A stretch of DNA of 49,651 bases, taken from IMG/VR virus record IMGVR_UViG_3300045988_028961. One strand, given 5' to 3'. Below, one piece after another: positions 17,157 through 38,346 of this stretch. The stretch comes from a virus. The position numbers and the translations under genes are program-made. The notes under the pieces are model-generated. The model saw nothing but the letters and a program-made list of their open reading frames with translations. It searched no databases and was not told the DNA's origin. Numbering within the stretch: position 1 is the stretch's first letter; every line of letters starts with the position of its first letter.

Positions 17157-17576
17157 ATGAAGGAACTGAAAATCACAACCGGCGTTGAAACCTATAAGCT
17201 GAACGATTCTGTTGAAGTCTCTTTCAACCCCACAGACGGCGCGTTTGTGGAAAAGCTTTTCAACGCCTTTGACACGCTGGATAAGCGGCAGGAATCCTAT
17301 AAGGCCGAAGTAGAGAAAAACGCTGGCAAAAGAGAGCTTTTTGACGTGGCCCGGAAACTGGATGGCGAAATGCGGGAAATCGTCAACGATGTGTTCGGTT
17401 TTGACGTATGCACCGGCCTTTTCGGAGCACTGAATGTGTACGCGCTGGCGGATGGCCTGCCCATCTGGGCGAACCTGATGCTGGCCATCATGGACGAGAT
17501 CGACGCCACGATGCTGCGGGAAAAGAAAGCCGCTGATCCCCGTATCGCCAAGTACACCAAGAAGTACCACAGATGA
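17157..17576 (+). CDS. Tail assembly chaperone (putative)
   Basis: Position between the major tail protein and the tape measure. Acidic protein. Confidence 0.5.
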   Translation: MKELKITTGVETYKLNDSVEVSFNPTDGAFVEKLFNAFDTLDKRQESYKAEVEKNAGKRELFDVARKLDGEMREIVNDVFGFDVCTGLFGALNVYALADGLPIWANLMLAIMDEIDATMLREKKAADPRIAKYTKKYHR

Positions 17577-18121
17577 CGTACACGCTGCCGACATCCGTCG
17601 AGATCAACGGACAGGAGTACGAGGTGCGGTCGGATTTTCGGGTCATCCTGGACATTCTGGAAGCCATTGGCGACGTGGAACTGGATGACCAGCAGCGGGC
17701 GGCGGTGGTGCTGGATATCTTCTATCCCGGATTTGAGGACATGCCTGCCGACGATTACGAGGAAGCCATTGCAAAATGCATGTGGTTTATCAACTGCGGG
17801 CAGATAGAAGAAACCAGCAAGAAGCCCAAGAAACTGGTGGACTGGCAGCAGGATTTCCCCGTGGTCGTCGCGCCTGTAAACCGCGTGATGGGTACGGAAG
17901 TTCGGTTGATGGAATATCTGCACTGGTGGACATTCATCGGCGCGTATCAGGAGATCGGAGACTGTCTGTTTGCCCAAATCGTGGGCATCCGGCAAAAGCT
18001 TGCCAACGGGAAGTCGCTGGACAAGAGCGAGAGAGAGTTTTACCGGAACAACCGGAACCTTGTTGATCTGAAGCATAGATACACCGATTGGGAGAACGAC
18101 AAGATTCGGGAATGGGTGTGA
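17573..18121 (+). CDS. Phage Gp15-like tail-associated protein
   Basis: LPTSVEINGQEYEVRSDFRVILDILEA resembles the Phage_Gp15 family. ATGA overlap with the previous gene. Confidence 0.5.
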   Translation: MTYTLPTSVEINGQEYEVRSDFRVILDILEAIGDVELDDQQRAAVVLDIFYPGFEDMPADDYEEAIAKCMWFINCGQIEETSKKPKKLVDWQQDFPVVVAPVNRVMGTEVRLMEYLHWWTFIGAYQEIGDCLFAQIVGIRQKLANGKSLDKSEREFYRNNRNLVDLKHRYTDWENDKIREWV

Positions 18122-18125
18122 AAAA

Positions 18126-18146
18126 GCCGCCCCGAAATGGGGCGGC
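18126..18146 (-). terminator. Intrinsic terminator for the minus-strand moron
   Basis: GCCGCCCC-gaaat-GGGGCGGC hairpin. The A5 run at 18121-18125 gives a U-run only for minus-strand transcripts. Confidence 0.6.
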
Positions 18147-18158
18147 TATTCCGAAAAC

Positions 18159-18734
18159 TTATTTGTTTGGGTAAATGGTGACGGATTCGCCTTTTTCCAC
18201 TGTGGAAACGCTGTTGTTGTCGTAAGCGACAAGGGAGAAATCTACCTTTTCCACATCGGAAAGCGGCGTATCGCAGAAAACGATGAAGGAGCCTGTCACT
18301 TTTTTCCCCGCGGCTGTGGTGACCGGCAGACCGGCTCCAGTGTTGCAGTGCTCGTCATCAACGTAAACATCTTCAAGGGTATACATACATTCTTTGTCAC
18401 TGGTGTTGCTGATGTTAATTGTGATGTAAAAAGCGCCCTGCACAGCGTCAGCGGAAAAGCACTTTTCAACTTGAGCGGTAAAACTGCCGTTGGTTATCGT
18501 CAATAACTCCGCTGCGGAAGAATCTCCGCCCGTGGAATTATTGGTTTCTTGCGGTGTATAACCGCCGCCGCAAGACTTTGCCATAATGCCAATAACGGCA
18601 CAAAGCGTAATGACAATGATGATGGAGCAAGCGCTTAACGCACCGACGTGCTGTTTTGCTCCGCACTTTGGACAGACTTTCGCGGATTTTGCTATTTCAG
18701 CGCCGCAGGTTTTGCATTTTACAAGTTTTGCCAT
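18159..18734 (-). CDS. Moron: zinc-ribbon, TM-anchored protein with an extracytoplasmic beta-rich (DUF4352-like) domain
   Basis: RBS GGAGGGG lies 8 nt before ATG 18734. CKTCG...CPKCG ribbon, TM helix ALSACSIIIVITLCAVIGIMA, then an ~140-aa Ser/Thr-rich domain. It is the only minus-strand gene inside the structural operon. Confidence 0.7.
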   Translation of the reverse strand: MAKLVKCKTCGAEIAKSAKVCPKCGAKQHVGALSACSIIIVITLCAVIGIMAKSCGGGYTPQETNNSTGGDSSAAELLTITNGSFTAQVEKCFSADAVQGAFYITINISNTSDKECMYTLEDVYVDDEHCNTGAGLPVTTAAGKKVTGSFIVFCDTPLSDVEKVDFSLVAYDNNSVSTVEKGESVTIYPNK

Positions 18735-18755
18735 TTTTATAACCCCTCCATAAAC

Positions 18756-18805
18756 ATAATTTGTGTGCGCACACAAATTATATCACTTTTGCACAAACAA
18801 GTCCA
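18756..18805 (-). promoter_or_regulatory. Moron promoter overlapped by a perfect 26-bp palindromic operator
   Basis: On the minus strand: TGGACT (18805-18800), a 17-nt spacer, then TATAAT (18782-18777). The palindrome ATAATTTGTGTGC|GCACACAAATTAT at 18756-18781 covers the -10 and the start site. An extra half-site CACACAAATTA lies at 18804-18814. Confidence 0.6.
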
Positions 18806-18833
18806 CACAAATTAACGAAAGCGTGGTGATCAT

Positions 18834-21107
18834 ATGGCAGCTGACGGCTCTATTGTTTTCAGCACGGAAATCGACGATAAGCAGGCGCAAGCGGAACTGA
18901 AAAAACTGGAAGCCAAAATCGAAAAGCTTAACAGCAAAATCTACGACAAGCGTCAGGCGCAGCTCCCGCTTGTAGAGCAGTCTAAGCAGTTGGGTGCGGC
19001 GCTGGATGCGGCACAGCAAAAGCTAGAAGATATGCGCAACGGCACGTCGTTTTATTACACAAAGTCTCAAATCAAGGATCAAGAGAAAGAGGTCAAGATC
19101 CTTGATAAGCAATTTCAGGCGCTGAACAACCGAATCGACAAAATTGGAGAGTCCATTGCTTCCGATACCAGAAATTTGGACGGCATGAAAGCAAAGGCCG
19201 GTGAGCTTTCCGGACAGATTGCCGGGGCCAAAAACCAAACAAACGGCATGAGCGACGCGGCGGAGGAAGCTTCCAAGCGCATGGACAATTTCGGCCAAAA
19301 AGTAAGAACGCTGGCGCGGCGCGTGTTCGTGTTTTCGCTGATCACAGCGGGTTTAAGAGCGCTGAAAGATTACCTGTGGGAAGCCATCAAGACCAACAAC
19401 GAGGCTGTGGCGGCTATCGCGCGGCTGAAGGGCGCATTGATGACGCTGGCGCAGCCCATTGTGGAGGTGGTGATACCGGCGTTCACGCTGCTGATCAACG
19501 TACTGACCCGCATCGTGACGGCGGTGGCGAAGCTGGTTTCCATGCTGTTCGGCACCACGATCCAGAAATCGGCGGCTGGCGCAAAAGCGCTGAACAAGCA
19601 GAAAAACGCCATTGAGGACGTGGGCGAAGCGGCAGAGGAAGCGTCGGGCAGTCTGGCAGATTTCGACGAGCTGACCACGATCTCTTACTCCGACAACAAA
19701 TCCTCCGGCAGCGGCGGACTTGGCGACATGGGCCTTGACGCCAGCGGCGGCATTGCGCCGGACTTTACCAGCATGATCGATGATGGGTTGAGCGCCATTC
19801 TGGAACTCTTTACCGGCGCGGCGCTGCTGGCGCTGGGCGCTATTCTGACCTTCTCCGGCGCGAATATCCCGCTGGGTATCGCACTGATGGTGTTGGGCGC
19901 TATCGCCATCTGGGACGCCATTTCGGAGAATTGGGACGCGATAAAGGAAATGCTGCAAGGGCCGCTGGGCTGGGCGGTGGCTATTATCAGCACGGCCCTG
20001 TTGGTGATCGGCGCGATCTTGATCTTCACGGGCGCAAACGTCCCGTTGGGCATCGGACTTCTGATCGCGGGAGCCATCGGACTGGCAACAACAGTAGCGG
20101 CCAACTGGAGCTTTATCGTAGAGGCTTTGCAGGGACCGTTGGGTCTGGTCATGGGGCTTTTGAGTACGGCTTTTCTTGTACTTGGCGTCATCATCCTGTT
20201 CACCGGCGCAAGCCTGCCGCTGGGCCTTGGCCTGTTGATCATCGGCGCGGTCGGCATGGCGGCCTCTATTGCGCCCAACTGGAACACCATTGTAGAAGCG
20301 CTGCAAGGGCCGCTGGGCGCGGTTGTGGCGCTGGTAAGCGGTGCTTTGCTGGTGCTGGGTATTATCCTGCTGTTCACCGGCGTGGGCATTCCGTTGGGCG
20401 TGGGCTTGATCCTGGCGGGCGCTGCGGGGCTGGTGGGCACCGTTGCCGTCAATTGGGATTTCATCCAAGACAAAATCATGAGCATCTGGGACGGCATCAA
20501 AAACTGGTGGAACACAAAAGTCAAAAAGTATTTTACCGCACAATATTGGCAAGACCTTGGCCGAAAAATGCTCAACGGCCTTTCGGATGGTTTAAAAAAC
20601 GCGTGGACGGCGGTAAAGAATTGGGTTCTTGATAAGGTGCAATGGATTATTGACGCTTTTAGCAGAGCGGCCAACTTCTTTTCCAATACGTTTTCCAAGA
20701 AAAACAATCTTGGTTCCGGCGGTGTTGGGGGATATGGCGCTTACAAACCTCAGTCTATGCCCGCGCTGCGGCGCGCGGAAGTGCCTGCGCTGGCGCAGGG
20801 CGCGGTGATCCCGGCTAACAAAAAGTTCCTGGCGGTTCTGGGTGACCAGACCAGCGGGACAAACGTGGAAGCTCCTTTGAGCACCATTCAGCAGGCGGCG
20901 GTTCAGGCGTTTGCGGAGATGGGGCCGGAGTTTGCAAGGTATATTGTGCAGGCGTTTGTGGAGGCCGGTATGCTGGGCAACATCCGGGCCATCGAGGACT
21001 ACGCAAGGGTGACGGCGCAGAAGGATTTCACGCTGGGTAAACCTTCGTCCTCTGCGGGCCGGTGGATCAACCAGAGCATGGAAGCATACGAAGCGGTAAG
21101 GGGGTGA
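18834..21107 (+). CDS. Tape measure protein
   Basis: 757 aa. N-terminal coiled coil, then a central region of Gly-rich hydrophobic repeats. Position before the tail-tip genes. Confidence 0.9.
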   Translation: MAADGSIVFSTEIDDKQAQAELKKLEAKIEKLNSKIYDKRQAQLPLVEQSKQLGAALDAAQQKLEDMRNGTSFYYTKSQIKDQEKEVKILDKQFQALNNRIDKIGESIASDTRNLDGMKAKAGELSGQIAGAKNQTNGMSDAAEEASKRMDNFGQKVRTLARRVFVFSLITAGLRALKDYLWEAIKTNNEAVAAIARLKGALMTLAQPIVEVVIPAFTLLINVLTRIVTAVAKLVSMLFGTTIQKSAAGAKALNKQKNAIEDVGEAAEEASGSLADFDELTTISYSDNKSSGSGGLGDMGLDASGGIAPDFTSMIDDGLSAILELFTGAALLALGAILTFSGANIPLGIALMVLGAIAIWDAISENWDAIKEMLQGPLGWAVAIISTALLVIGAILIFTGANVPLGIGLLIAGAIGLATTVAANWSFIVEALQGPLGLVMGLLSTAFLVLGVIILFTGASLPLGLGLLIIGAVGMAASIAPNWNTIVEALQGPLGAVVALVSGALLVLGIILLFTGVGIPLGVGLILAGAAGLVGTVAVNWDFIQDKIMSIWDGIKNWWNTKVKKYFTAQYWQDLGRKMLNGLSDGLKNAWTAVKNWVLDKVQWIIDAFSRAANFFSNTFSKKNNLGSGGVGGYGAYKPQSMPALRRAEVPALAQGAVIPANKKFLAVLGDQTSGTNVEAPLSTIQQAAVQAFAEMGPEFARYIVQAFVEAGMLGNIRAIEDYARVTAQKDFTLGKPSSSAGRWINQSMEAYEAVRG
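19810..20470 (+). repeat. About 4 tandem copies of a 174-nt (58-aa) hydrophobic repeat inside the tape measure gene
   Basis: The unit G(A/V)(N/S)xPLGxxLxxxGAxxxxxxxxxNWxxIxExLQGPLGxxxxxxSxAxLVxGxILxFT recurs with a ~174-nt period; GANIPLG, GANVPLG, GASLPLG and GVGIPLG begin near 19857, 20030, 20205 and 20378. Confidence 0.7.
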
Positions 21108-36577: not shown

Positions 36578-37681
36578 CTATTTTGCCTTTGTTTGTAACG
36601 TGTTAGTAACCGCACTGACCAGCGTTTCTGCGTCAATGTGCGTGTAAACGTCGGCAGTTGTGGCATAATTGGCATGACCGAGAATTTTTTGCAGATATTC
36701 AGGGGCAAGACCTTCTTTGACCGCGCGGGTGGCGTAAGTGTGCCGCGTGGCATGGGGGGTCTTTTTTTCTATTTTGAGCCTTTCCAACAGGGAGTAATAT
36801 TCCCGCCTGCGGAAGTTGGCAGGGACTTTTTGACCATCATATCCTGAAATTAGCAAACTGCCGTTTGCTTTTTTTGCAAAGTATGCAAAATACTCCTGGC
36901 CTTCTGGCCGGATAGGGATAATGCGGTTTTTGCCTGCTTCTGTCTTTTCACCGCCGACCACATAATCCCCGTGATAATCTTTCAGTGGTAGGGTGAACAA
37001 TTCACCGATGCGCATACCGGTGGCAAGAAGCATAAGGATGATCTTGGCGGTGTCGCTGCCGTCCTTTTCTAGCTTTTTAATCTCGGCGGCGGTAAACACG
37101 TCTTTTTCTTTCTTGACGTTTTCCGGAAGCTTTACAAAGCGGGCAAAGTTGGTGGTGCAAATTTCCTCTCGCACGGCCCATGTGGACATCTGGGTAATAA
37201 GCTGCTTGTACTTGTTTACCGTGGAGTGGCTTTTGCTCATGTGCTGGTCGATCACCGATTGGAAGTCATCGGTGCGCAGGCTGCGAAATTTCTTATCGTG
37301 CAGTGGCTGAAAGATCACATAAGCGCGTTCGTAGGTCTCGATGCCCTTCTCTCCGATCTCGCGGTAATGCTCCGCTTTCCACTCGGTAAAAACTTCCGAG
37401 AAGGTCATGTTGTACCGTTCGTCCAAATCCTTGCCGGAAAGCTTCTCTAAGGCCGCCAGCGCGTCCGTTTTCTTCTCGTAGTATCCGACAATGACCTTGT
37501 TCTTCGCGGCCACCCACGGCCTTGTACGGCGGCCTGAAAGCTTATAAACGGTTCCGGCTCCGTTGGGACGCTTCAACGCTTTGCGGGGCGCTGCGGCCTG
37601 TCTCTTTCCACACCACGGGCAAAACGTTGCATTGGCGGGAACTTCTCTCTTACAGCTCTTACATTTCGTTGACTTTTCCAT
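36578..37681 (-). CDS. int: Tyrosine integrase with an N-terminal zinc ribbon
   Basis: CKSCK...CPWCG N-terminus. C-terminal catalytic region ...HATRHTYATRAV...LGHANYATTADVYTH. Confidence 0.9.
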   Translation of the reverse strand: MEKSTKCKSCKREVPANATFCPWCGKRQAAAPRKALKRPNGAGTVYKLSGRRTRPWVAAKNKVIVGYYEKKTDALAALEKLSGKDLDERYNMTFSEVFTEWKAEHYREIGEKGIETYERAYVIFQPLHDKKFRSLRTDDFQSVIDQHMSKSHSTVNKYKQLITQMSTWAVREEICTTNFARFVKLPENVKKEKDVFTAAEIKKLEKDGSDTAKIILMLLATGMRIGELFTLPLKDYHGDYVVGGEKTEAGKNRIIPIRPEGQEYFAYFAKKANGSLLISGYDGQKVPANFRRREYYSLLERLKIEKKTPHATRHTYATRAVKEGLAPEYLQKILGHANYATTADVYTHIDAETLVSAVTNTLQTKAK

Positions 37682-37779: not shown

Positions 37780-38346
37780 TTACTGCTCTTTTATCTTCCT
37801 CGCGTATCGCAAAGCGTTCAAAAACGCCGACGCGATTACGCCTACACCGACCGCCAGCAGGACAATAACGATCCATGCCAGTGTGCTGGCCTGACCGCCC
37901 TGTATCAAACCGGCGTATGGTACGCTGTAGTCGAATACAACATAGCCGACAAGCACCAGCAGCAGGATCACGGCAATCGTTGTGACGCTGTACAGAGAAA
38001 CGCGCAGGCGCTTTTCTTTGGTGTTCTGGTTGTCTACTGTTTTGTTGAGCTGTTCTACACTTCCTTCAAGGTGGGCAAGCTTCAGCTCTGCCTTGTGGTC
38101 ATGCTCCAGTTCCCGCACCTGATCTTCCGGCAGAACATACGGCGTGATGTCAAAATATTTGTCCATTGAAACACCACATGCTCGGCATATGTTGCCGGAG
38201 TTATTTACAGTTGGCGTTTTAGATGTAGATGCAAAAAAGTTTTGCACACTGGAAAGCGGAACGTTGGCTTTGTCTGCAACGTCCTGATTGGTCATACCCT
38301 GTCGGTCTCTGGCCTCTCTGCATATATCCTGTAAAGATTTGTTCAT
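37780..38346 (-). CDS. Membrane-anchored XRE-type HTH regulator
   Basis: N-terminal HTH (GMTNQDVADKANVPLSSVQNFF), a coiled-coil linker, then two C-terminal TM helices (VTTIAVILLLVLVGYVVF and LAWIVIVLLAVGVGVIASAFL). Confidence 0.7.
   Translation of the reverse strand: MNKSLQDICREARDRQGMTNQDVADKANVPLSSVQNFFASTSKTPTVNNSGNICRACGVSMDKYFDITPYVLPEDQVRELEHDHKAELKLAHLEGSVEQLNKTVDNQNTKEKRLRVSLYSVTTIAVILLLVLVGYVVFDYSVPYAGLIQGGQASTLAWIVIVLLAVGVGVIASAFLNALRYARKIKEQ

What the first reader, a model, noticed from the sequence alone, without database searches (positions are those of the whole stretch)
18121..18830. Antisense moron wedged between the tail chaperones and the tape measure, under a palindrome-controlled promoter
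This is the only minus-strand gene in the 24-kb structural block. It encodes a zinc ribbon (CKTCG..CPKCG), one TM helix and an ~140-aa extracytoplasmic beta-rich domain.

It has its own promoter (TGGACT, 17-nt spacer, TATAAT on the minus strand, 18805-18777) and its own minus-strand-specific terminator (18126-18146 followed by a U-run). A perfect 26-bp palindrome ATAATTTGTGTGCGCACACAAATTAT (18756-18781) covers the -10 and the start site, and a third half-site CACACAAATTA lies at 18804-18814.

This architecture suggests a lysogen-expressed surface protein (superinfection exclusion, receptor masking or a defence sensor) under a dedicated repressor or activator.

It also means late tail transcription must run head-on through an active convergent unit, so transcriptional interference is possible.
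Basis: partly seen in the sequence, partly recalled or inferred. Interest (0 to 1): 0.6.

Follow-up and report, generated by a model that had tools for sequence, protein, structure and literature searches.

The report
Backwards membrane-protein cassette in phage tail operon
A gut phage carries a self-contained 0.7-kb gene cassette, read backwards between its tail-chaperone and tape-measure genes, for a membrane-anchored surface protein; it is a real "moron" in a known cargo hotspot, it most likely protects the carrier cell from other phages, and the palindrome over its promoter is not conserved.

Summary
A 191-aa gene (18734..18162, minus strand) has its own near-consensus promoter, ribosome-binding site and minus-strand-only terminator. 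A perfect 26-bp palindrome and a third half-site are present.

The protein has a cytoplasmic zinc ribbon, one membrane helix and a confidently modelled Ig-like beta-sandwich. That sandwich is distantly DUF4352-like and faces outward.

It is a true moron. In 77 related phage contigs chosen by the neighbouring chaperone gene alone, the slot is empty in 48 and holds exactly one reverse-strand gene in 29. There are at least 10 cargo types. Two phages with 99% identical tape-measure proteins carry unrelated cargo.

The same 705-bp cassette (window 18126-18830, 76% identity) also stands alone in bacterial contigs, just downstream of a tmRNA gene.

The gene is under purifying selection (dN/dS 0.04-0.2).

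The slot is the one where HK97 gene 15, the original moron and an injection blocker, sits. This scan has met similar cassettes in other genomes.

The "palindrome-controlled promoter" is not supported. The perfect palindrome occurs only in three lineages that share an identical promoter segment. Relatives keep the promoter but not the symmetry, and the half-site occurs nowhere else in the phage.

Function is inferred, not shown: most likely prophage-expressed protection against phage entry.

The parts
17573..18121 (+). Left flank: Phage_Gp15-family gene, the second of the two tail-chaperone-position genes. Its stop codon TGA (18119-18121) abuts the cassette.
   Evidence: PF06854 E=1.7e-24; phrog_706.
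18121..18147 (-). Intrinsic terminator of the cassette. Stem GCCGCCCC/GGGGCGGC (18126-18133 / 18139-18146), loop GAAAT, then U5 (18125..18121) on the minus strand only.
   Evidence: Sequence. RNA fold -24 kcal/mol, z = -5.9; the plus-strand tail is UAUUCCG. The same hairpin type follows nearly all other cargo genes in this slot.
18159..18734 (-). Cargo gene of 191 aa plus stop. Zn ribbon (residues 5-27), TM helix (32-53), low-complexity linker (54-78) and Ig-like beta-sandwich (79-190).
   Evidence: dN/dS 0.04-0.22 against relatives.
18743..18749 (-). Ribosome-binding site GGAGGGG, 8 nt upstream of the ATG.
   Evidence: Sequence. Conserved in L002-L006, L164 and L165.
18756..18781 (.). Perfect 26-bp palindrome ATAATTTGTGTGCGCACACAAATTAT. 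It covers five of the six bases of the -10 hexamer (18777-18781) and the predicted start site.
   Evidence: Not conserved beyond lineages that share an identical promoter segment.
18777..18805 (-). Sigma-A/sigma-70-type promoter: TGGACT (-35), 17-nt spacer, TG-n-TATAAT (extended -10).
   Evidence: The GTGGAC(A/T)-17-TGnTAnAAT form is conserved with other cargo types and in the chromosomal copy.
18804..18814 (+). Third copy of the half-site CACACAAATTA, overlapping the -35 by 2 nt.
   Evidence: Degenerate in L004-L006 and in L165.
18126..18830 (-). Extent of the mobile cassette, defined by homology to the stand-alone chromosomal copy.
   Evidence: blastn of L165 367-1069 against window 18830-18126: 76% identity over 706 columns. 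Empty-slot relatives have only 8-34 nt here.
18834..21107 (+). Right flank: tape measure protein gene (757 aa).
   Evidence: phrog_1535 E=1.4e-36.

Best explanation
Window 18126-18830 is a discrete moron cassette: promoter, RBS, one gene and a one-way terminator. It sits antisense in the cargo slot between the tail-chaperone genes and the tape-measure gene of a temperate gut siphophage, probably of Clostridia. This is the slot where the archetypal moron, HK97 gene 15, lies.

Shown:
- The cassette is present or absent, and is swapped for unrelated single reverse-strand genes, among close relatives.
- It also exists alone in bacterial contigs.
- The gene is under purifying selection.
- Its product has a Zn ribbon, one TM helix and an Ig-like beta-sandwich.
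- The same beta-sandwich occurs elsewhere behind a lipoprotein signal peptide, so it faces outward.

Inferred:
- Host RNA polymerase reads the near-consensus extended -10 promoter in the lysogen while the late operon is silent.
- The hairpin stops only the leftward transcript, so late tail transcription can read through it during lytic growth and then swamp the cassette.
- The protein sits in the cytoplasmic membrane with its beta-sandwich in the wall zone. There it most likely interferes with adsorption or DNA entry of incoming phages (superinfection exclusion).
- The perfect palindrome is a lineage-specific sharpening of a degenerate quasi-palindrome at the start site, not a conserved operator.

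Confidence is about 0.9 for the cassette and topology part, and about 0.45 for the anti-phage function.
For: Anatomy.

Fold: AlphaFold2 gives pLDDT above 90 for residues 79-190. Foldseek against viral models hits DUF5067 and DUF4352 phage proteins at E = 1e-7 to 4e-6.

Topology: L099 carries the same ectodomain behind a lipobox (LSLSAC), and L094 carries a related one behind LLAGC.

Slot census chosen by the Gp15-like gene only:
- 48 of 77 loci are empty, with an 8-34 nt gap.
- 29 are filled, always with one reverse-strand ORF.
- There are at least 10 cargo types, including bPH_1, tRNA_anti-like OB and DUF4352.

Dynamics:
- The tree needs at least 11 cargo changes. The window's own starred clade holds 3 cargo types.
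- L084 and L087 have 99.3% identical tape-measure proteins but unrelated cargo.
- 79 of 80 phage loci found by the Zn-ribbon motif have the gene in this same slot and orientation.

Stand-alone copy: it lies 138 nt after a tmRNA gene.

Selection: dN/dS 0.04-0.22.

Lifestyle: the phage is temperate, with a tyrosine integrase and an HTH_3 protein.

Literature:
- HK97 gene 15 lies between the tail-tube chaperone and tape-measure genes and blocks genome injection (PMC3594210).
- The DUF4352 protein Mpr is membrane-bound and anti-phage, and escape maps to a minor tail protein (PMC12596739).
- Ltp, a surface lipoprotein of a Gram-positive phage, targets the tape-measure protein (cited in PMC3952083).
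Against: - There are no expression data and no phenotype.
- PADLOC gives no hit for this protein or for 10 other cargo proteins.
- The ectodomain does not reach any Pfam model, even at E = 1. The ectodomain-only profile comparison with DUF4352 is weak (E = 0.007, probability 5.6%).
- Some cargo in the slot is cytoplasmic (bPH_1) or regulatory (Bro-N/Rha-like genes in L022, by eye). The slot therefore does not dictate an envelope or exclusion function.
- Cargo type is not coupled to tape-measure type. This argues against a specific partnership with the resident tape-measure protein.
- Pairwise dN/dS shows no diversifying selection of the kind often seen in arms-race surface proteins.
Confidence: 0.55

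Rival explanations
1. Lysogenic-conversion surface factor unrelated to phage exclusion. The outward Ig-like domain binds a wall polymer, a host glycan or a nutrient, or it buffers envelope stress. This would raise the fitness of the lysogen in the gut.
For: Ig-like beta-sandwiches are generic binding modules. The PDB fold hits are adaptor-ear, MSP and lipoprotein folds with no functional signal. A 69%-identical copy persists in bacterial contigs outside any recognisable prophage. DUF4352/DUF5067 proteins are common non-phage lipoproteins of Firmicutes (names; PMC5020093 listed, not read). No PADLOC hit.
Against: 79 of 80 phage loci keep the gene inside the tail operon next to the tape measure. 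The only experimentally characterised residents or relatives are anti-phage: HK97 gp15 and Mpr.
Confidence: 0.25
2. The 26-bp palindrome plus the third half-site form an operator. A dedicated phage or host repressor or activator binds it to switch the moron promoter.
For: The palindrome is statistically exceptional, with 13-nt arms against at most 11 in 30 shuffles. It covers the -10 and the start site, and a third exact half-site overlaps the -35. The phage encodes HTH proteins. Relatives retain a weak quasi-palindrome of 8-9/13.
Against: The perfect form occurs only where the whole promoter segment is identical by descent: window, L002 and L164. Window versus L002 shows dS = 0 over codons 1-55 but 0.70 in the ectodomain. 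L003-L006 and the chromosomal copies keep the promoter and RBS but lose the symmetry. The exact 11-mer or 9-mer occurs nowhere else in the 49.6-kb phage. Other cargo promoters in the slot have unrelated sequence at this position. A templated quasi-palindrome correction would produce the same clustered changes.
Confidence: 0.15
3. A lytic-cycle helper rather than a prophage-expressed gene. It would be made early after infection or induction from its own promoter. It could mask receptors so that progeny are not wasted on lysing cells (as with T5 Llp), or tune lysis or envelope events.
For: A near-consensus sigma-A promoter would also fire early in infection. Many of the relatives retrieved were not checked for lysogeny genes.
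Against: Once late transcription starts, antisense read-through should oppose its expression (inferred). The window phage is temperate. A stand-alone chromosomal copy has no lytic cycle to serve.
Confidence: 0.1

Closest known systems
HK97 gene 15 moron (gp15, YebO-like inner-membrane superinfection-exclusion protein; Juhala et al. 2000; Cumby et al. 2012, summarised in PMC3594210)
   Same: The genomic slot is the same: between the tail-tube chaperone and tape-measure genes. Both are self-contained transcription units of deviant composition. Both encode a small membrane-anchored protein. Both have bacterial homologues outside prophages.
   Different: There is no sequence relationship, and no YebO hit in Pfam at E <= 0.1. 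Here the gene is antisense to the tail operon. The protein has a Zn ribbon and a 110-aa outward beta-sandwich. The host is Gram-positive-type. The function is untested.
Mpr of Mycobacterium smegmatis and mycobacteriophage DUF4352 proteins (PMC9262609, PMC12596739)
   Same: Both are membrane-bound proteins with one TM segment and a C-terminal DUF4352-type beta-sandwich. Phage-encoded versions occur in temperate phages. The function is anti-phage, with escape mutations in a tail protein.
   Different: The window protein's ectodomain does not reach the DUF4352 model. Its N-terminal part is a 30-aa Zn ribbon, not Mpr's unstructured exonuclease region. So the Mpr mechanism of DNA degradation cannot simply be transferred.
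Zn-ribbon + TM + DUF4352/DUF5067 proteins of Firmicutes prophages (e.g. the slot genes of MT835513 and L022-L081)
   Same: The Zn-ribbon and TM anchor are homologous: M-x-K-x-x-x-CK-x-CG-x-x-IAK-x-A-x-x-CP-x-CGA. The slot, orientation and terminator type are the same. Whole-protein hhalign gives probability 99.8%.
   Different: The ectodomain belongs to a separate small family with no Pfam model. About 12 clusters at 90% identity were found, and they carry conserved Cys residues.
Ltp-type superinfection-exclusion lipoproteins of Streptococcus thermophilus phages (PMC3952083; Bebeacua et al. 2013)
   Same: Both are prophage-encoded proteins displayed on the outer face of a Gram-positive membrane. 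Ltp acts on the incoming tape-measure protein.
   Different: Ltp is a lipoprotein with helix-turn-helix repeat domains, encoded in the lysogeny module. Here the protein has a signal-anchor with a Zn ribbon and a beta-sandwich, and the gene lies in the tail operon.
Lambda bor (from my own knowledge: a lipoprotein moron transcribed opposite to the late operon)
   Same: It is an antisense, independently transcribed envelope-protein gene inside the late region of a temperate phage.
   Different: The slot differs (after the lysis genes). The protein family and the documented role (serum resistance) also differ.

Membership tests
Moron (Hendrix/Juhala definition) | Extra DNA present in some and absent from other closely related phages at the same position | tested here: met
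   48 empty and 29 filled slots among 77 relatives chosen by the neighbouring gene. Gains and swaps are mapped on the tree.
Moron (Hendrix/Juhala definition) | Own promoter and own terminator flanking the gene | tested here: met
   10/12 promoter match with extended -10. Strong minus-strand-only terminator. Activity was not measured.
Moron (Hendrix/Juhala definition) | Base composition different from the neighbouring genes | tested here: met
   47.1% GC against 57-58% in the flanks.
Moron (Hendrix/Juhala definition) | Expressed from the repressed prophage | not testable with these tools
Zn_Ribbon_1 (PF13240) | HMM score above the gathering threshold, with four Cys in CxxC...CxxC | tested here: met
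   29.6 bits against 25. C7, C10, C21 and C24 are invariant across the first, 13-sequence alignment, which includes a true DUF4352 slot protein.
DUF4352 (PF11611) / DUF5067 (PF16729) | HMM match of the ectodomain | tested here: not met
   No hit for P0001 or its close family, even at E <= 1. Only 2 of the 13 members of that alignment match DUF4352; these are presumably the distant members, including the MT835513 slot protein.
DUF4352 (PF11611) / DUF5067 (PF16729) | Ig-like beta-sandwich fold and remote homology | tested here: inconclusive
   Foldseek hits viral DUF5067/DUF4352 models at E = 1e-7 to 4e-6. Ectodomain-only hhalign gives E = 0.007 but probability 5.6%, with matching NxS, YVDD and AGKK motifs.
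HK97 gp15 / YebO family | Sequence homology to YebO/gp15 | tested here: not met
   No such Pfam, PHROG or NCBIfam hit. Only the position and the membrane anchoring are shared.
Mpr-type defence | N-terminal exonuclease region joined to TM and DUF4352 | tested here: not met
   The N-terminal 30 residues are a Zn ribbon. There is no room for Mpr's nuclease region.
Ltp-type Sie lipoprotein | Lipoprotein signal peptide with lipobox, and HTH-repeat ectodomain | tested here: not met
   The N-terminus is a Zn ribbon. 'AKSC' is not a canonical lipobox, and the Cys is absent in most relatives. The ectodomain is all-beta.
Known anti-phage defence systems (PADLOC-DB 2.0) | Match to any defence protein model | tested here: not met
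   0 families at E <= 1. Other cargo proteins also have none, apart from one chance-level hit.

The most novel reading that the evidence does not exclude
The chaperone/tape-measure junction of this large gut-phage lineage may work as a cassette-exchange site. A shared 'frame' would bracket interchangeable single genes. The frame is a GCCGCCC(C)...GGGGCGGC one-way terminator abutting the Gp15 stop codon, plus a GTGGAC(A/T)-17-TGnTAnAAT promoter next to the tape-measure RBS. The whole 0.7-kb unit would move as a block between phage tail operons and bacterial chromosomes, as in the copy found just after a tmRNA gene. A modular Zn-ribbon/TM anchor would be recombined with different outward domains: the P0001 type, DUF4352 and tRNA_anti-like OB. 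That would amount to an integron-like shuffling system for envelope-acting anti-phage proteins, rather than ordinary illegitimate recombination.
Probability: 0.15. Interest if true: 0.7.

Novelty: new member of a known kind. Interest (0 to 1): 0.4.

Why it matters
Morons are the main way temperate phages change their hosts, yet almost none from gut Clostridia phages has a known function.

This locus gives a clean, experimentally tractable set. There is one slot, dozens of near-isogenic phage backbones, and at least ten alternative single-gene cargoes, most of them membrane-anchored proteins facing outward.

If the cargoes are entry blockers, they would help explain phage-host specificity and prophage competition in the gut. 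They would also extend the HK97 gp15 paradigm to Gram-positive-type hosts.

The negative result on the palindrome matters as well. It stops a striking but lineage-private symmetry from being read as a regulatory circuit.

Tried and rejected
1. Function from databases. Nothing specific was found for the ectodomain.
- PADLOC, NCBIfam and Pfam gave nothing for it.
- PDB sequence search with two profiles found nothing significant; the best hits, both to the DUF4352-type profile, were an 'uncharacterized beta-sandwich protein' and a 'conserved hypothetical'.
- Foldseek against the PDB gave only generic Ig-like ears and MSP domains.

2. An RNA element at the palindrome or cassette. Rfam found nothing at E <= 1 in 17500-19500. 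The palindrome would be only half-transcribed from the predicted start, so a 5'-UTR hairpin was rejected.

3. A regulon for the half-site. There are no further exact copies. One-mismatch 9-mers occur less often than chance predicts.

4. Diversifying selection on the ectodomain. Rejected: dN/dS is 0.03-0.22.

5. Coupling of cargo type to tape-measure or tail-tip type (the idea of a self-matched exclusion specificity). Rejected. L084 and L087 have 99.3% identical tape-measure proteins but different cargo. P0001-type cargo rides with different Dit/Tal sets.

6. Pseudogenised cargo in L150-L161. This was an artefact of my first script; the 291-aa gene is intact.

7. Mechanism of the chromosomal copy. 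There are no flanking direct repeats. The window phage does not carry the tmRNA 3' end.

It was redone without that row.

No whole genome is held for this window.
Full report
**1. What is there**

The minus-strand ORF listed as 18776..18159 really starts at the ATG at 18734. That ATG lies 8 nt after GGAGGGG and gives 191 aa. All homologues start at the same MAK and most are 186-197 aa long.

Residues 5-27 are a four-cysteine zinc ribbon (PF13240, 29.6 bits against a 25-bit cut-off). An AlphaFold2 model built on 18 sequences gives:
- a helix at residues 32-53;
- a disordered Ser/Gly/Thr-rich linker;
- a beta-sandwich at 79-190 with pLDDT above 90.

The lysine-rich N-terminus predicts an orientation with the N-terminus inside and the C-terminus outside.

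The promoter-like site is TGGACT-17-TGaTATAAT at 18805..18777, scoring 10/12. The hairpin at 18126-18146 is followed by U5 only on the minus strand (-24 kcal/mol, z = -5.9). On the plus strand its tail is UAUUCCG, so it should not stop late transcription.

The perfect 26-bp palindrome (18756-18781) and the third half-site (18804-18814) are exact. The 13-nt arms exceed all 30 shuffles of the window.

The cassette is 47.1% GC against 57-58% on either side. The flanks are a Phage_Gp15-family gene (PF06854) and the tape-measure gene. The phage is temperate: it has a tyrosine integrase at 36578-37681 and an HTH_3 protein at 37780-38346. Other long reverse ORFs in the structural block have no PHROG hit, whereas the overlapping forward ORFs do.

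**2. The protein family**

A search of 5.8 billion proteins found about a dozen full-length relatives at 44-96% identity that are annotated only with the Zn ribbon. It also found many weaker hits whose conserved part is the Zn ribbon plus TM segment and whose ectodomain is DUF5067/DUF4352.

PHROGs has a family of unknown function covering residues 3-118 (phrog_14275). PADLOC and NCBIfam give nothing.

The ectodomain itself reaches no Pfam model, even at E = 1. Three lines still point to a distant DUF4352 relationship:
- Foldseek against viral models returns DUF5067 and DUF4352 phage proteins at E = 1e-7 to 4e-6.
- Whole-protein profile comparison with true DUF4352 slot proteins gives probability 99.8%, but the Zn ribbon drives this.
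- Ectodomain-only comparison aligns the NxS, YVDD and AGKK motifs at E = 0.007, probability 5.6%.

I therefore call it DUF4352-like in fold, with membership not established. PDB hits are generic Ig-like sandwiches.

The same ectodomain occurs behind a canonical lipoprotein signal peptide in L099, and a related one in L094. This independently places it outside the membrane.

**3. The slot**

A motif-based scan of viral contigs gave 80 loci. In 79 of them the Zn-ribbon gene lies antisense between the Gp15-like gene and the tape measure, although the flanking tail proteins have diverged to 50-60% identity. The human-faecal phage MT835513 has a 29%-identical protein in the same place; it is presumably one of the two alignment members that match DUF4352.

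That set was chosen by the gene itself, so I made a second set chosen only by the Gp15-like neighbour. Of 77 scorable loci:
- 48 have 8-34 nt between the Gp15 stop and the tape-measure start.
- 29 carry 0.5-1.2 kb, holding exactly one reverse-strand ORF of 127-365 aa.

The cargo types are:

| Cargo | Loci |
|---|---|
| Zn ribbon + TM + this ectodomain | 3 |
| Double Zn ribbon + TM + tRNA_anti-like OB fold | 3 |
| Zn ribbon + TM + long C-terminal region with no Pfam match (365 aa) | 1 |
| TM + tRNA_anti-like OB | 1 |
| Cytoplasmic bPH_1 domain | 3 |
| Unknown 232-aa protein | 4 |
| Lipoproteins | 2 |
| TM + DUF5067/DUF4352 | 1 |
| DUF2846-like + TM + DUF4352 (291 aa) | 11 |

On a Gp15 tree the states need at least 11 changes. 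The window's own well-supported clade of eight holds three cargo types. The 291-aa cargo is a gain nested among empty-slot phages.

L084 (this family) and L087 (bPH_1) have 99.3% identical tape-measure proteins. Cargo replacement is therefore recent, and cargo is not matched to the tape measure.

Nearly every cargo ends in the same kind of hairpin, GCCGCCC(C)-loop-GGGGCGGC. Its U-tract runs into the Gp15 stop codon, and it usually terminates only the cargo strand. Most cargoes also have a strong extended -10 promoter, often GTGGAC(A/T)-17-TGnTAnAAT. One subgroup (L007-L020) has only about 30 nt before the tape-measure start, so its promoter must lie inside that gene.

**4. A stand-alone copy**

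The 69%-identical protein P0005 is encoded in bacterial-looking contigs from several samples. It lies next to a hybrid histidine kinase, not next to tail genes.

blastn shows that exactly window 18126-18830 is shared at 76% identity. This span runs from the terminator hairpin to the complement of the tape-measure RBS. The copy starts 138 nt after a tmRNA gene (Rfam RF00023).

No flanking direct repeats were found. The window phage lacks the tmRNA 3' end.

**5. Selection and mosaicism**

Pairwise dN/dS is 0.04-0.22 in all three parts of the gene, comparable to the neighbouring Gp15 gene. The gene is functional and is not obviously under diversifying selection.

Between the window and L002, the promoter and codons 1-78 are essentially identical. 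The ectodomain, in contrast, has dS = 0.70 with only six amino-acid changes. A recombination junction therefore lies inside the gene.

**6. The palindrome**

The perfect palindrome occurs in the window, L002 and L164. In all three the 130 nt upstream of the gene are the same sequence, so this is identity by descent and not independent conservation.

In L003-L006 and in the chromosomal copies, the -35, spacer, extended -10, the downstream AAATT(A/G)TG and the RBS are kept. The 11 nt after the -10 differ at 5-6 positions, leaving 8-9/13 complementarity. All of these changes are transitions. The upstream half-site is also degenerate in L004-L006 and in L165.

The exact half-site occurs nowhere else in the 49.6-kb phage. 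Other cargo promoters have unrelated sequence at this position.

The simplest reading is that a degenerate quasi-palindrome at the start site was sharpened to perfection in one sub-lineage, for example by a templated strand switch. A dedicated regulator cannot be excluded, but nothing here requires one.

**7. How it most likely works**

Shown: a mobile, selected, self-contained unit that encodes a protein anchored in the membrane with an outward Ig-like domain.

Inferred:
- Host sigma-A polymerase transcribes it in the lysogen.
- Late transcription reads through the one-way hairpin and, being antisense, shuts the cassette down during lytic growth.
- The protein acts at the envelope.

By position it parallels HK97 gene 15, the first element ever called a moron. 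That gene lies between the tail-tube chaperone and tape-measure genes and blocks genome injection in a tail-dependent way (PMC3594210). By domain type it parallels Mpr and phage DUF4352 proteins: membrane-bound, anti-phage, with escape in a minor tail protein (PMC12596739 and PMC9262609). Mpr's nuclease region is absent here. Ltp of S. thermophilus phages shows that surface-displayed prophage proteins of Gram-positive hosts can block entry through the tape-measure protein (PMC3952083).

I put about 0.45 on superinfection exclusion or entry blocking, and 0.25 on a non-phage surface function. The remainder is spread over an early lytic role and other roles.

**8. Novelty**

The kind (a moron in the chaperone/tape-measure slot) is textbook. 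The antisense orientation has precedents (lambda bor, from my own knowledge). This scan has already reported the same type of cassette in other genomes, with the same closest-known element.

New here:
- the ectodomain family;
- the quantitative slot census;
- the shared terminator/promoter frame;
- the near-isogenic cargo swap;
- the stand-alone chromosomal copy.

**Limits**

No host genome is held. Only 80 of more than 556 related loci were examined.

Noticed in passing
L165 1-1265 (also L166-L170): The whole 705-bp cassette (76% identical to window 18126-18830) stands alone in bacterial-looking contigs. It lies 138 nt downstream of a tmRNA gene and converges on a hybrid histidine-kinase gene. 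There are no tail genes and no flanking direct repeats.
   Followed up: partly
window 18762-18775 and the same position in L003-L006: The segment just after the -10 is a 14-nt strictly alternating pyrimidine-purine tract in the window (TGTGTGCGCACACA) and in L003, L004 and L005. All 11 differences between these versions are transitions, which preserve the alternation. The chromosomal copy keeps it only in part. This may be a Z-DNA-prone or flexible start region, or just mutational bias.
   Followed up: partly
window 18162-18734 versus L002 4001-4573: There is a recombination breakpoint inside the gene. The promoter and codons 1-78 are virtually identical (dS about 0-0.12). The ectodomain has dS = 0.70 with only 6 amino-acid changes.
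   Followed up: yes
L030 1120-1281 and L031 4001-4177: In two phages the slot gene is cut down to 53-58 aa, just the Zn ribbon plus TM helix with no ectodomain. These are either decayed copies or a minimal form.
   Followed up: no
L022 4650-7290: In one relative the slot is about 3.3 kb. Besides the reverse-strand Zn-ribbon/DUF4352 gene it holds, on the late-gene strand, a Bro-N/antirepressor-like 250-aa ORF and a Rha-like 259-aa ORF. These assignments are by eye and were not scanned.
   Followed up: no
window 36578-37681 (-): The tyrosine integrase carries an N-terminal zinc-ribbon-like segment at residues 4-27 (DUF7575/UPF0547/DZR hits, all below cut-off).
   Followed up: no
window 37780-38346 (-): The HTH_3 repressor candidate is 188 aa. 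It has a C-terminal part that weakly resembles a membrane-protein domain (DUF2207_C, below cut-off). It could be a membrane-tethered repressor.
   Followed up: no
L116 4040-4090: In this relative the cargo terminator has T-runs on both sides, so it looks bidirectional. It should then also stop late transcription just before the tape-measure gene, unless late transcription is antiterminated.
   Followed up: no
L162 (CALIHA010000015.1): A 42-kb contig carrying this phage type is binned in a MAG labelled Collinsella (Actinomycetota), whereas the other genome hit is Oscillospiraceae. This is probably a binning artefact and is relevant to host assignment.
   Followed up: no
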